A stretch of 64,000 bases of DNA from Octopus vulgaris (Eukaryota), in the NCBI GenBank assembly GCA_951406725.2, contig OX597816.1, positions 177,754,001 through 177,818,000 on the forward strand, in the 5' to 3' direction. Every line of letters begins with the position of its first letter. Position 1 is the stretch's first letter. The notes under the pieces are model-generated. The model had not been told where the DNA came from and searched no databases. It worked only from the letters and a program-made list of their open reading frames with translations. The translations under genes were made by a program, and so were the position numbers. Below, piece after piece: positions 1,367-58,410 of this stretch.

Positions 1367-1914
1367 TATATATCTCCTATATAGACCATATATATATATA
1401 TATATATATATATATGTGCGTGTGTTATAATGGACTAATTACTATGAAGCATTGTGTAAAATATTTTGCATAAATGATCGTTGGTAAGGCCAAAACAACG
1501 GGAAGTAAATGCAAGGTCAGTCACAAGAAAACAAATATATGAATTAATGTAGACTAACCTTGTATTAAATATTTCGGGGTTATGACCCCATTTTCAAGAG
1601 ATTCATGAATGTTGCCGATGTGCGTGTGTGGAGTGGACATGCGCAGAAGCGTGTTGCTATAGCAACCAGCTAGCTTCCTGCAACTCTCTTCAATTGTTGA
1701 TGTTGGGTTTTTGCATTTTTGTTTGTTTTTCTTTTGGGGGGATCAAAAATTGAAGCGAGTTACAGGAGGGGAATTACATATATCCATATATATATATATA
1801 TATATATATATATATATATATACATACATACATATCACATACATATATACATACATACATATCACATACATATATGATACATATATATATATCATATAGT
1901 TCTATATTTAAGAA

Positions 1915-2141
1915 AGGAGGAAGTATGTACATTATTTACATTTCACGTATATTTGTCCTCATCTTGTTTGTTGTTAACACAACGTTTTGACTGATACACC
2001 CTCCAGATTTCATCAGGTGTCTTGAGGAAATTTCGAACCTGAGTTCTCATTATTATTATTATTATTATTATTATTATTATTATTATTATTATTATTATTA
2101 TTATTATTATTATTCAGGTCACTGCCTGGAATCGAACTCAA
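1915..2141 (-). mobile_element. 5'-truncated tRNA-type SINE with (AAT)n linker and a degenerate hammerhead
   Basis: Minus strand: B-box GAGTTCGATTCC (2128-2139), (AAT)n, then GACAC-CTGATGA-...-AAAACGTT-GTGTT (1976-2021), then an AATGTAAATAATGT tail. Confidence 0.6.
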
Positions 2142-2286
2142 GCTATTCATAATAACTGCACTCGGTCTGCTTAGGAGGTTGTTAGGACCTAGCATATGTG
2201 CTGCTTCATTTATTTTTTAGATTTTAGCAGGACATATGCTACGGCACAACAGCCTCCTAAGCAGACCGAGTGCAGATATGAATAGC
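2142..2286. repeat. Imperfect inverted repeat (about 60-bp arms)
   Basis: GCTATTCAT..CTGCACTCGGTCTGCTTAGGAGG..TAGCATATGT mirrored by ACATATGCTA..CCTCCTAAGCAGACCGAGTGCAG..ATGAATAGC. Confidence 0.9.
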
Positions 2287-2452
2287 ATATGGGAATTGGT
2301 ATTAAAGAAGGATAGGAAAATATTAGCCCTAAAATTCACTCCATAATTGCCCGCGGGCATATGACGTAGTGGTTATATATTATATAAATATATATATATA
2401 TATATATATATATATATATATATATATATATATATATATATATATATATATA

Positions 2453-2672
2453 CTTTATTTTAAGCAGCAGAAAAATCAACAAAATCTGTTACCTGAGTTT
2501 CTCGTTGCCGTTCATCAGACAGTTTTTGCTAGAATGATGAACGGCAACGAGAAACTCAGAGTAACAGATTTTGTTGATTTTTCTGCTGCTTAAAATAAAG
2601 CATATTACTCTACCACTGGTATTTGAGTACTCTTTTTTCCACCTTGTTTCACATTTATGTGTTTACTCCGGT
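2453..2672 (+). mobile_element. Short Penelope-type element (inverted segment + HHR + tail) in (TA)n
   Basis: Inverted arms 2453-2517 / 2535-2600 then a ~70-nt unique tail; minus-strand CTGT-CTGATGA-ACGGCAACGA-GAAA-CTCAGGTA-ACAG; related copy at 42415-42615. Confidence 0.75.
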
Positions 2673-3296
2673 ATATATATATATATATATATATATATAT
2701 ATATATATATATCATAAACATATAATATATATATATATCATATATATTTATGTATATATATATATCTTGTATATATATATATATTATATCATATCATATA
2801 TATATATATATATATATATATATTATTATATATATATATATATATACAATATATATATCATATATATATCATATATATCATATATATATCATATATATAT
2901 CGTATAAATGATATGTATTCTATATATATATATATATATTATATATTATATATATATATCATATCATATATATTATATCTATATATATATCATATGTATT
3001 ATATATATATCATATATATATATATATCCTATATAAATATTATATATATATTATATATATCATATATATCCTTTATAAATATATTATATATATATATATC
3101 CTATATAAATATTATATATATCATATATATCCTTTATAAATATATTATATATATATATTATATATATTAGATATATATATGTATATACGTATGTATATAT
3201 ATTATATATATATGTATATATATATGTATATATATATGTATATATATATATATATATATATATATATATATATATATATATATATATATATATATA

Positions 3297-4329
3297 CGCT
3301 GTGAGTCAATGGGCAGACAGAAACAAAATGCAACTGAATGAGGGAAAATTTGAGCTGATGCATTTTGGAAGAAATTCCTCACTAAAACAACCATACTCTC
3401 TTCCTTCAGGGGAACCGCTCACAGCCTCTAACAATATCAGAGACCTGGGTGTAATTGTTGATGACGATCTCAGTTGGAGTGCACACATCAACAAGAAGGT
3501 CGATATAGCTCGTAGGATGAGTTCCTGGATCTTAAGAACTTTCCGGTCCAGAGAACAAGGTGTCATCATACCACTTTTTCCTCCTTTGTACGGCCACACC
3601 TTGAATACTGCTGCCCATTGTGGTCTCCTCACACAAGACAAAGCATCTCCAGAATTGAGTCACCCCAGAGGGCTCTCACTAAACAAATTGAAGGCATGGC
3701 TGCTCTCGATTATTGGGATCGCCTTAAAGCCTTGAAACTTTACTCCCTCCAGCGTCGCCGTGAGCGGTACATCATTTGTACGATGTGGAAAATATACCGC
3801 CAACTTTGCCCAAACGACCTAAACATTAGCTTCAAGGTTCATCCAAGACTTGGACCACGGGCTATACGTCCCCTGCCAAATTCAAGATCACAACATACAT
3901 GTACACTGCAACATAATTTCTTTTCCTCAACAGGCCCTGCCCTATTTAACATTGTCCCGAGGGAGATCAAAGAGGAAACGGATCCCATCAACTTCAAACA
4001 GAGTCTGGATAGATTCCTTCAAAGAATACCAGATAAGCCACCCATAATTGGATGTATCCAATTATGGGTGGCTTATCTGGTATTCTTTGAAGGAATCTAT
4101 CCAGACTCTGTTTGAAGTTGATGGGACCCTTGAACTCACTACTTGAACTCACTACTTGAACAAAACTCACTACTTGAACAAAACTGGATACAACTCACCC
4201 AACAAGAACTCACTACTTGAACAAAACTTGACTTAAACAGGATTCGAATAATCCTATCAGGTGGTGATATTAAGTTAGACATGGCCTGGACCAATCTCTG
4301 GTCGAAACATATCTAAGTTTATCTAAGTA
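3297..4329 (+). mobile_element. CR1-group LINE, 5'-truncated ORF2 C-terminus and 3' UTR
   Basis: Frameshifted ORFs with RDLGVIVD, RPHLEYCCPLWSP, LYSLQRRRERY; 3' stem-loop GACC-AATCTCT-GGTC and TATCTAAGT tail repeats; flanked by (TA)n. Confidence 0.9.
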
Positions 4330-4558
4330 TATACTATATATCATATATATCCTATATAGATATATTATATATATAGATATATTATATATATATATATATA
4401 TATATATATATATATATATATATATATATATATATATATATATATATATATATATATATATATATATATATATATATATATATACATATATATATATATA
4501 TATCCTATATAAATATATATTATATATATTATATTTATATATCATACATATATCATAT

Positions 4559-55900: not shown

Positions 55901-55962
55901 CCTTCTTTGTTTTCTTAGCAGGTCGTGATGCCTCTTTTTTATCTCTTCATACAAAATTTCTT
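52905..55962 (-). mobile_element. R2-group (Hero-like) non-LTR retrotransposon with restriction-like endonuclease, 5'-truncated and frameshifted
   Basis: QKAGIPGIPGYIEH, WLDLANAYGSVPH, RAFMDD, KFKAKKSRS, PVKSLGRWY; RYTWRHNQVL; RPDLVLW..LLELTVP RLE motifs. Confidence 0.88.
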
Positions 55963-56058
55963 GCGATGGAAATTTATGGAATGGAATCCAATATGACTAC
56001 ACAAATTTGTTAAAAATAAAGAAGAAAAGATGTTAAAGTTTAAAAGAATTCTAATTCA

Positions 56059-56169
56059 TGCATATGATCGTTTCAAACAGCGATATTAACACATGCATCT
56101 TCATGGTAGAATAATTAAATTAATTTGATTAATTTTAATTAATTGTATATCACTGTTCTCCTCAGTGCA
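56059..56169 (-). ncRNA. Type I hammerhead ribozyme with long stem II
   Basis: TGCA-CTGAGGA-GAACAGTGATAT..ATATCGCTGTTT-GAAA-CGATC-ATA-TGCA; 12-bp stem II with G-U pairs. Confidence 0.8.
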
Positions 56170-56723
56170 AGAAGCATAAACAAAAAATTTATTTATATAT
56201 ACGTATATATATGTATACATATATATGAATATATATGTATATAAATTATGTATACATATATGTATATATATGTATTATATGTATATGTATATATATATAT
56301 ATATATATGTATTTACATGTATGTATATATATATGTATATATATATATGTGTGTGTATATATATATGCATATACATATATGTATATATATATATATTAGT
56401 GTGTGTATATATATATATATATATATATATATACATATAAATATATATATATATATGTATGTATATATATATACCTATATATATATATGTATATATATAT
56501 GTATCTTGATATGCATACGCATATATATGTATATATATATGCATATATATATATATGTATATATTTATATGTATATTTATGCATATATATATATGAATTA
56601 TATTTGTATATTTATATGTATGTATATATGTGTATATATATATGGATGTATATATACCGACGTATGTCTGTATGTATGTATATATATACCTATGTATGTA
56701 TATATACATACATACATAGTATT

Positions 56724-56906
56724 GGACAATCAGTAAGTTGTCATAATAGAACTCAGAGTTTCAAATGCTGGAGCTAAATGCTTCGGGGCATTTTCATCGG
56801 CTATTTTTGACGATAGACGCTACAAATAGCCGAGGAAAATGCTCCGAAGCATTTAGCTCGGGCATTTGAAACTCTGAGTTCTATTATGTTCACGTACTGA
56901 TTGTCC
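56724..56906. ncRNA. Inverted pair of hammerheads (CCGAUGA on -, CCGAGGA on +)
   Basis: AATAG-CCGAGGA-AAATGC..GCATTT-GAAA-CTCTGAG-TT-CTATT at 56825-56885, mirror copy at 56745-56805. Confidence 0.8.
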
Positions 56907-57474
56907 TATATATATATATATATATATATATATATATATATATATATATATGTGTGTGTGTGTGTGTACAGCTTGGCCTGCTCGCCTAGCCAGCGGGGTG
57001 GCATCATTTGAATGCGAAGCGTATTGTGACCAGAGATGTGTAGCAACATCTGATAGCCTGCTCGGTCACGGTGGTCACGGTGATATATATATATATATAT
57101 ATATATATATATATATATATATATATATATATATATATATATATACATATATATACATATATATACACAGACACACATATATACACACACACACACATAT
57201 ATACATATATCGAAATACGTGAGTAGAAAAACAGCCAACAACTGATGAAATGTCGTTCCTTATGTTGCTTGTCTTGTTCTCCATTTGTATCTACGTTGTT
57301 CGAAAAAATATTTTATATTCCACGCACTCGTACTTCGTATTTTTTGTTGTATACGTTTTGTGACGTCCTGTGCCCACGTATGCATATATATGTATGTATA
57401 TATATATATATATATATATATATATATATATATATATATATATATATATATATATATATATATATATATATATA

Positions 57475-58410
57475 ACAAAGTGGAGTTGTATGGTACTGCA
57501 CGAGTGGAATTATATACGAAAGAAGGTTTGAAAATGCAATTTAAAAGATGTTTATTTACTTTACCGGTTTCACTCTTTGGAAAAAGATTGTCAAAAGTAA
57601 CATGTAGAAGTTTGGTTGCGTTAATTATTGGTTGTTACAAATTGCTACATTACATATATACAGTCTTTGGTATTAGGGACATGTTAAGGACATAAAAAAG
57701 TTCAACAAGTTCCTTAAAATATTGGGCACAAAAGATTACTATATAAATGATCATTCTCAAGAACATGCTTAAGATAGTTTCCATAGGAATTGATATTGGT
57801 ATTGGTGTTGTATCTGTATATTCAAACATACACAGAATATTGGTTGACACAGAGTACTACAATCCATATAAATATATATTCTTTGGTGACAAGAGCATGT
57901 TGAGAATATAAAAGAGTTTAACAAGCTCATTGAAATAATGGGCACAAAAGATTACAAATATATTATACATTCTCAAGATAATTTCCAGAAGGAATTATTA
58001 AAAAAGTTCAGTATACACGTACAGAATATTATGAGTTCAAAAAGATTTACATTATAATAGTGGTGAAGCTAAAACTGACCTATTATCTATTATCTATGTT
58101 TGAATATACAGATACAATACCAATACCAATATCAATTCCTTCTGGAAACTATCTTATGCATGTCCTTGAGAATGATTATTTATGTAGTAATCTTTTGTGC
58201 CCAATATTTTAAGGAACTTGTTGAACTTTTTTATGTCCTTAACATGTCCCTGTTACCAAAGACTGTATATATGTAATGTAGCAATTTGTGACAACCAAAC
58301 GCAAACAAACTTCTACATGTTACTTTTCACAATCTTTTTCCAAAGAGTGAAACCGGTAAAGTAAATAAACATCTTTTGAATTGCATTTTCAAACCTTCTT
58401 CTTTCGTATA
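57475..58410 (-). mobile_element. PLE-type element with ~320-bp inverted arms, ~36-nt tail and U3-A8 HHR
   Basis: 57511-57830 inverted at about 58095-58410; TTACTT-TTGACAA-TCTTT-TTCC-AAAGA-GT-GAAACCGGTA-AAGTAA at 57556-57600. Confidence 0.8.

What the first reader, a model, noticed from the sequence alone, without database searches (positions are those of the whole stretch)
1566..58410. Dense zoo of hammerhead-bearing Penelope-type mini-elements colonising (TA)n tracts
Seen: about 20 HHR-like motifs with core and GAAA in the right order, most with recognisable stems (near 1566, 1976, 2486, 13872, 15056, 15915, 16534, 19354, 19984, 20454, 21182, 23434, 27513, 29350, 29730, 42550, 42774, 56059, 56745, 56825, 57556). 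They fall into more than 10 families with unrelated stem sequences. Most hosts share one layout: (TA)n, inverted segment, HHR, 35-200 nt tail, (TA)n. Known: PLE pseudo-LTRs carry minimal type I HHRs with a palindromic stem III that can cleave as dimers, and PLE inserts show inverted segments with a tail. Inference: a large non-autonomous ribozyme-retroelement system targeting TA microsatellites, about one HHR per 3 kb and invisible to ORF-based annotation.
Basis: partly seen in the sequence, partly recalled or inferred. Interest (0 to 1): 0.9.

Follow-up and report, generated by a model that had tools for sequence, protein, structure and literature searches.

The report
Penelope retroelement ends plus a retrozyme
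The small self-cutting RNA motifs are real, but most are likely the clipped ends of known Penelope-like retrotransposons that land in TA repeats; one is a protein-free 360-base tandem element whose insertions carry Penelope hallmarks, so it likely borrows their enzyme.

Summary
Observation largely confirmed; interpretation mostly not. 20 of 21 listed sites are type I hammerheads or decayed family copies (11 pass a relaxed descriptor; 12 hits vs 2.7 in shuffles). 52 of 74 random genomic copies precede a (TA)n tract vs 17% expected. Only 8 of 21 sit in fold-backs, and genome-wide density is about 1 per 15 kb, not 3 kb. Four families (7 sites) were traced to the 3' pLTR of RT/GIY-YIG Penelope-like elements, one with intact 1,070-aa ORFs; a fifth ends a 3.36-kb unit. 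This is the known picture (solo min-HHRs from truncated PLEs). Three things add value. (1) Site 20454 is an ORF-less 360-bp tandem retrozyme, 98-99% identical across chromosomes, inserted as back-to-back arrays with a fixed end joined to (TA)n (508 exact junctions): the insertion signature of PLEs. (2) Family 1976 is a Poseidon-type PLE with a tRNA-like A/B-box segment in its 3' UTR where many copies start, a possible PLE-driven SINE. (3) The youngest intact family carries A6U in the catalytic core. No cleavage was tested; RNA reads show no pile-up of ends.

The parts
1568..1597 (-). Family L hammerhead, U3-A8 type, stem I disrupted (decayed)
   Evidence: 1 homologue in 1.2 Mb
1899..2375 (-). 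Family C insertion: 3' end of a Penelope/Poseidon-type PLE with pieces of a tRNA-like segment, (AAT)n, hammerhead at 1981-2016 (G12 mutated here) and an inverted arm at 2226-2375
2453..2671 (.). Family A fold-back insertion between TA tracts; hammerhead at 2490-2518 (minus), tail on the other arm
13876..13971 (+). Family H hammerhead, intact core, long stem II; parent not found
14992..15238 (-). Family N truncated pLTR; hammerhead at 15060-15087 with A6U
15743..16258 (-). Family D insertion with inverted arm; hammerhead at 15919-15954
16537..16654 (-). Family I hammerhead, intact core, long stem II; parent not found
19303..19975 (-). Family E: 3' UTR of a Neptune-type PLE, U3-A8 hammerhead at 19357-19386
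   Evidence: (L039 joins it to an ORF)
19989..20070 (+). Family M hammerhead; stem I covaries among subfamilies
20205..20708 (+). Family O: 1.4 units of an ORF-less 360-bp tandem retrozyme; hammerhead at 20460-20493 with extended stem I; ends on the TA tract at 20709
21135..21316 (+). Family B truncated pLTR; hammerhead at 21186-21212 (U4C)
23352..23566 (+). Family B truncated pLTR; hammerhead at 23438-23464
27431..27644 (+). Family B truncated pLTR; hammerhead at 27517-27543
29353..29386 (+). Family J hammerhead; parent not found
29637..29802 (-). Family N truncated pLTR; hammerhead at 29733-29760 with A6U
42414..42615 (.). Family A fold-back insertion, junction inside the hammerhead (42550-42578)
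42668..42952 (+). Family K fold-back; hammerhead at 42779-42842 (G8 changed); no homologue in 1.2 Mb
48111..51819 (-). Decayed autonomous Neptune-type PLE, relative of family N: 5' pLTR with hammerhead remnant near 51187, 5' UTR, broken ORF with RT, cut before the endonuclease
56720..56906 (.). Family F fold-back with a hammerhead on each arm (56750-56800 minus, 56830-56880 plus)
57475..58406 (.). Family G long fold-back, U3-A8 hammerhead at 57562-57594 (minus) and its mirror near 58300

Best explanation
Four of the hammerhead families are the 3' ends (pLTRs) of protein-coding Penelope-like retrotransposons, most of the others likely are too, and one is a protein-free 360-bp tandem retrozyme likely written into the genome by the same kind of enzyme. 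Shown: fixed 3' ends, variable 5' ends, continuity with RT/GIY-YIG ORFs, TA-tract junctions, fold-backs. Inferred: the endonuclease nicks (TA)n; the nicked end would pair with a 3-6 nt TA-alternating word about 40-180 nt downstream of the hammerhead; reverse transcription starts inside the RNA, crosses an uncut or religated hammerhead and usually stops early, often folding back on itself. A circular or read-through template would give partial tandems of the 4.5-kb element and multi-unit arrays of the retrozyme. The short copies are mostly dead on arrival.
For: Family N: 10 of 10 fetched long copies (picked for long open frames) end ORF, 3' UTR, hammerhead, about 110 nt, (TA)n; 6 have the same pLTR 4.5 kb upstream; 5 have 1,071-1,082-aa ORFs; RVT_1 above cut-off, GIY-YIG E 0.006 below it. 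Family B: 4 of 30 loci picked by an upstream piece reach a GIY-YIG C-terminus 1.8 kb upstream, and 5' ends spread over 1.4 kb. Family E joins an ORF in L039. Family C: 20 of 20 loci picked by the endonuclease end have 5' ends spread over 1 kb. Family A: same-strand marker pairs 3,352-3,365 bp apart and back-to-back pairs from 20 bp to 5 kb; 24 different junctions in 30 hairpins. The fixed end falls on a TA-like word in the read-through sequence in N, a second intact family, A and O. The two pLTRs of one copy differ by 0-2 substitutions vs 2-7 between copies (6 copies). Family O. Literature: PMC4209133, PMC8557442, PMC11167929.
Against: No parent was found for families D, F, G, H, I, J, K, L, M, and for A only a unit length, no ORF. 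In the random sample old copies are almost all short with clustered 5' ends (B: 12 of 14 at 85-103 nt upstream of G12; N: 22 of 22 within 121 nt of the cleavage site against one reference), which random truncation does not predict. The retrozyme shows no similarity to any PLE pLTR held, so its driver is not identified. In vitro, a Poseidon element starts at a site not homologous to the nicked DNA (PMC11167929), so homologous priming here is inference. No read ends pile up at the family C cleavage site.
Confidence: 0.85

Rival explanations
1. One reading: the families are dedicated non-autonomous mini-elements of about 200 nt that copy themselves as such with a PLE enzyme in trans.
For: True for O. 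Old B and N copies have clustered 5' ends; B marker inside the edge 2,806 vs 55 for a marker 42 nt upstream; C copies pile up at the tRNA-like edge.
Against: B, N, E and C all continue into ORFs. Young N shows no step (1,397 vs 1,389), nor does A (2,527 vs 1,980). Family A hairpins have individual junctions. The upstream B marker fits only one subfamily, so 2,806 vs 55 overstates the step.
Confidence: 0.15
2. Run-off model for the short copies: RT starts inside the PLE mRNA about 100 nt after the hammerhead and runs off the transcript's 5' end, which lies in the pLTR about 100 nt before it, giving a 200-nt strong-stop-like cDNA that is integrated or folds back.
For: Internal initiation, with product length set by the template's 5' end, is shown in vitro (PMC11167929). 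The D. virilis start site lies 46 bp before a 75-bp intron that ends at helix I (PMC2377424, PMC4209133). B ends cluster at 92-103 nt in 11 of 14 copies.
Against: No step in the young N subfamily or at the initiator-like word of A. Microhomology with the TA target at the first AT-rich word would also cluster ends. No start site was mapped.
Confidence: 0.3
3. The 360-bp arrays arose as a satellite by DNA-level duplication (unequal crossover) from a pLTR-derived monomer, not by multi-unit reverse transcription.
For: This route is proposed in bioRxiv 10.64898/2026.07.22.740005 (discussion). No RNA circle was observed here.
Against: Arrays are dispersed over many chromosomes at 98-99% identity, and 6 of 6 arrays I re-ordered are two diverging arms with a variable inner junction and one outer end at unit position 325-327; 508 exact junctions of that end to (TA)n. 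Crossover does not give fixed ends or back-to-back arms.
Confidence: 0.12
4. The motifs are chance matches in AT-rich, repeat-rich DNA.
For: The relaxed descriptor gives 2.7 hits by chance; 56059 and probably the extra hit at 6864 are chance.
Against: (well above shuffles); multi-copy families; position in PLE pLTRs; two-sided stem changes.
Confidence: 0.02

Closest known systems
Minimal type I hammerheads in pLTRs of metazoan EN+ Penelope-like elements (Cervera and de la Pena 2014, PMC4209133)
   Same: Short stem I, bulge before stem II, palindromic stem III, U3-A8 variant, many families per genome, mostly solo motifs from truncated PLEs, opposite-strand pairs.
   Different: Far higher number here (about 180,000 extrapolated from 78 per 1.2 Mb vs 2,000-9,000 reported with a strict descriptor, so not like for like); A6U and U4C cores fixed in whole families, not mentioned in the parts I read.
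Neptune-clade PLEs; structure and (TA)n bias as summarised in Craig et al. 2021 (PMC8557442)
   Same: RT, C-x4-C-x2-C linker, C-terminal GIY-YIG, partial tandems, inverted 5'-truncated copy, 30-40-nt tail on one end.
   Different: That paper documents the (TA)n bias for Naiads, which lack canonical hammerheads; here it is in C-terminal-EN elements with hammerheads, and the fixed end coincides with an internal TA-like word.
Metazoan non-LTR retrozymes (Cervera and de la Pena 2020, PMC7229834; Li et al. 2026, bioRxiv 10.64898/2026.07.22.740005)
   Same: Family O: 360-bp ORF-less tandem monomer, one type I hammerhead per unit, highly self-paired.
   Different: Both papers argue for PLE mobilisation from co-occurrence and pLTR similarity. 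In the passages read neither reports an insertion signature; here ends, fold-back arms, tail and target match PLEs, yet no pLTR similarity was found.
Schistosoma Sm-alpha/Sj-alpha Pol III SINE-like repeats with hammerhead (as reviewed in PMC6765202)
   Same: Family C short form: tRNA-like A and B boxes followed by a type I hammerhead.
   Different: Here the segment sits inside the 3' UTR of a coding Poseidon-type PLE about 30-40 nt after the stop, copies are not tandem, and Pol III transcription is not shown.
Poseidon element of Anolis, PAc (Frangieh et al. 2024, PMC11167929)
   Same: Two adjacent internal start sites bounding the tail; uncut RNA as template.
   Different: PAc primes without homology on AT-rich DNA; the TA-targeting families here appear to use short homology.

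Membership tests
EN+ Penelope-like element | Single ORF with PLE-type RT and GIY-YIG endonuclease | tested here: met
   Family N intact ORFs, (GIY-YIG below Pfam cut-off, motifs visible); B, C, E by ORF fragments. Not seen for A, D, F-M.
EN+ Penelope-like element | pLTR from partial tandem with hammerhead in each repeat | tested here: met
   6 of 10 long N copies
EN+ Penelope-like element | 5' truncation, inverted arm, 30-40-nt tail on one end | tested here: met
   tail of family A is longer (about 70 nt)
Neptune clade | Zn-finger-like CX2-5CxxC between RT and EN | tested here: met
   Present in N and in the second intact family; B is 56-62% identical to N in the EN
Neptune clade / Penelope-Poseidon clade | Placement in an RT tree with labelled references | not tested
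   No labelled references held; C is called Poseidon-type only because the linker finger is absent and from recalled motif likeness
Type I hammerhead ribozyme | Core boxes in order with three stems | tested here: met
   11 of 21 sites by descriptor; 9 decayed; N has A6U in 19 of 21 parsed random copies
Type I hammerhead ribozyme | Stem covariation | tested here: inconclusive
   N+B: 1 pair changed on both sides, a lineage difference; M type: 4 pairs in 7 sequences; relatedness not controlled
Type I hammerhead ribozyme | Self-cleavage | not testable with these tools
   Needs in vitro assay; one search shows no pile-up of ends for family C
Non-LTR retrozyme (family O) | ORF-less tandem monomer of 170-400 nt, type I hammerhead in each unit, no LTR | tested here: met
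   fold z -5.1
Non-LTR retrozyme (family O) | Expressed as circular RNA | not tested
tRNA-derived SINE (family C short form) | tRNA-like head with A and B boxes | tested here: met
   Boxes visible; ARAGORN calls it only at a relaxed threshold, 0 of 5 loci at default
tRNA-derived SINE (family C short form) | Copies begin at the head | tested here: inconclusive
   12 of 29 loci end at -8..+2, none between -9 and -157, 4 longer, 13 shorter; a small natural hairpin at that edge could do the same
tRNA-derived SINE (family C short form) | Pol III transcript from the head | tested here: inconclusive
   No read starts pile up, both directions equal, 75% of reads run on into host sequence; lack of T4 runs not significant (0.61)

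The most novel reading that the evidence does not exclude
Penelope-like enzymes in this genome drive two kinds of passenger: a 360-nt hammerhead circle, copied by rolling-circle reverse transcription primed on nicked (TA)n through a 3-nt match, and a Pol III SINE born inside the 3' UTR of a Poseidon-type element that captured a tRNA promoter upstream of its hammerhead. The retrozyme half alone I put at about 0.75, the SINE half at about 0.35.
Probability: 0.3. Interest if true: 0.72.

Novelty: new member of a known kind. Interest (0 to 1): 0.45.

Why it matters
The zoo itself is the expected debris of Penelope-like elements. The value is in testability: which reverse transcriptase spreads animal retrozymes is still argued from co-occurrence, and this genome offers a young 360-nt retrozyme with a mapped start site and target, next to at least two Neptune-type families with long open frames. 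A PLE-driven SINE was not found in my searches. An A6U core in a recently mobile family asks whether PLE hammerheads need to cut at all. The fold-backs may also be a large source of double-stranded RNA in host transcripts.

Tried and rejected
Rfam scan: only microRNA-like noise on microsatellites in the rows shown. Strong-stop at an initiator as a general rule: rejected for young N and for A; one search was a guessed marker, 0 matches, uninformative. Fixed 5' end of family C at the endonuclease end: rejected, ends vary. Family A next to an ORF in L072: separate insertion across a TA tract; the O-like piece in L072 is an older 74% relative not tied to that ORF. T4-run test for Pol III: not significant. 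Automatic 5' end calls for N and A were spoiled by microsatellite alignment and not used. Run search: no holder on record as RNA, no evidence either way. Lunse et al. 2017 on PLE hammerhead variants was not held, so A6U and U4C may already be described. Supplements of PMC4209133, PMC8557442, PMC13282606 and the 2026 preprint were not read and may bear on the novelty claims. Earlier findings of this scan: none. One script for exact motif positions, stem III dimer energies and a circular fold was not run; positions come and dimer energies are missing.
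Full report
Setting. The window is G000:C3:177754001-177818000 of a 2.8-Gb animal genome with about 30 large contigs. I infer an octopus from size and recalled repeat content; nothing below depends on it.

Observation. A strict type I hammerhead descriptor gives 7 hits vs 0.24 in 25 local shuffles; a relaxed one 12 vs 2.7+-1.7 in 30 shuffles, 11 of them at listed sites. 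Nine further listed sites are decayed copies of multi-copy families; 56059 has no support. In 120 evenly spaced 10-kb stretches (1.2 Mb) the strict descriptor finds 25 hits at score >=8 vs 1.0 in 5 shuffles, and homology to the window's families finds 78 copies, 1 per 15 kb. Of 74 scoreable copies 52 have a (TA)5+ tract within 250 nt downstream, against 17.4% of random positions; family 1976 is the exception (1 of 7). Inverted arms are present at 8 of 21 sites. Covariation is modest: one two-sided pair between N and B, four among 7 M-type sequences.

What the short pieces belong to. The window holds a broken PLE ORF at 48111-49340 minus. Searching with it returned 114 scored relatives at 86-91% identity besides itself, many with open frames near 1,000 aa. 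Ten long copies chosen for open frames all end with 3' UTR, the 15056/29730-type hammerhead, about 110 nt and (TA)n; six repeat that pLTR 4.5 kb upstream and five encode 1,071-1,082 aa, with RT, a C-x4-C-x2-C linker and GIY-YIG. The window's own decayed copy keeps the pLTR near 51187. Family B reaches a GIY-YIG end in 4 of 30 loci selected by an upstream piece. Family E follows an ORF in L039. Family C continues into a Poseidon-type RT/EN region with 5' ends spread over 1 kb in 20 loci. Family A ends a 3.36-kb unit, judged from marker spacing only, and its 30 best hairpin matches show 24 junctions (selected by a hairpin query). A second intact family (811-aa frame) ends in a U3-A8 hammerhead like 19354 and 57556 and has two alternative ends about 40 nt apart. 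No parent was found for nine rarer families. This matches PMC4209133 (parts 1-2 of 4 read: solo min-HHRs from truncated PLEs, weak dimer cleavage) and PMC8557442 (passages: inverted copy, tail, (TA)n bias).

Mechanism. Shown: fixed 3' ends that fall on a short TA-like word in the read-through sequence in N, the second family, A and O; intact hammerhead sequence upstream of that end; pLTR pairs more alike within than between copies. Inferred: nick in (TA)n, priming by short homology, internal start, passage through an uncut or religated hammerhead, early stop or fold-back. Internal starts and use of uncut RNA are shown for a Poseidon element in PMC11167929 (parts 1-2 of 4 read), there without homology. 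Against simple random truncation: old B and N copies cluster in length, while young N and A show no step. A transcript start in the pLTR (PMC2377424, passages), short masters, or microhomology at the 5' joint could each explain it; unresolved.

Family O (20454). The window holds 1.4 units of a 360-bp repeat with no long ORF, folding at z -5.1. The search scored 40 candidates and gave 179 matches, 150 listed, the full-length ones 97-99% identical, in head-to-tail steps of about 360 bp on many chromosomes. Six arrays that I re-ordered, up to 16 units, are all a minus arm then a plus arm, with a variable inner junction and one outer end at unit position 325-327. Genome-wide, that end is joined to (TA)n 508 times, reads through 1,274 times, a second end about 37 nt further is joined 29 times and a site in between once; reversed controls 0. 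This fits the retrozyme definition of PMC7229834 (passages) and adds the PLE insertion signature; that paper calls PLEs a strong candidate, and bioRxiv 10.64898/2026.07.22.740005 (parts 1-3 of 5) argues from co-occurrence and trees. My search for such a signature in print listed three papers, seen as listings only. No pLTR held resembles O and no circle was looked for.

Family C (1976). Between the stop codon and the hammerhead lies a tRNA-like segment with A and B boxes followed by (AAT)n. Of 29 loci, 12 reach back to -8..+2 of its start, none end between -9 and -157, 4 are longer and 13 shorter; genome-wide 3,685 markers at the edge vs 1,035 31 nt upstream. A Pol III start would do this; so would a stall at the small hairpin there. 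Three RNA runs of a differently labelled organism show equal depth in both directions, 75% run-on into other sequence and no pile-up of ends, so transcription seen is passive. Searches for a PLE-driven SINE found nothing relevant. Closest known: Schistosoma Pol III hammerhead repeats (PMC6765202, passages).

Core variants. Position 6 is U in 19 of 21 parsed random N copies and in all long copies; B, O and F often carry U4C. The paper most likely to cover these variants was not held.

Also read: PMC13282606 (parts 1-2 of 3; lists recently active Penelope-like families in an octopus, no hammerheads mentioned there), PMC3846280 (passages; palindromic junctions, solo pLTRs).

Verdict. Real, above chance, mostly known. 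Interest 0.45, carried by the retrozyme with a PLE insertion signature and the tRNA-like segment.

Noticed in passing
L294:780-1055 (family C): RNA reads show many A>G and T>C differences at 10-19% that the DNA-like run shows at under 1%; looks like A-to-I editing of fold-back copies, but RNA and DNA come from differently labelled organisms.
   Followed up: no
L182 and L223-L226, just after the fixed 3' end: Two distant Neptune-type families share a TA-rich word followed within about 15 nt by the same 6-nt palindrome; could be a promoter or the RT start signal.
   Followed up: no
window 54275-55996 minus: Broken non-LTR RT ORF of R2/Hero-like look (recalled likeness); the unsupported motif at 56059 lies at its 5' side.
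   Followed up: no
window 3300-4040 plus; 25897-26271 plus; 4900-5230 minus: 3' fragment of a CR1/L2-like LINE, an LTR-type RT fragment and a Tc1-like transposase fragment (recalled likeness).
   Followed up: no
window 16345-16420 minus and 6864-6967 plus: Two unlisted candidates: a core box next to a TA tract without the second box, and a weak descriptor hit that is probably chance.
   Followed up: partly
L228:5947-6547; L054:4124-4434; L039, L046, L088, L145, L149: Further hammerhead families absent from the window, so 1 per 15 kb is a lower bound.
   Followed up: no
L041, L148, L245, L255, L072: Different families stack in one TA tract, each new copy landing in the tract left beside an older one.
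   Followed up: partly
P0025, P0043, P0056, P0071, P0074: PLE-like proteins filed under bacterial symbiont names on short contigs; likely host contamination.
   Followed up: no
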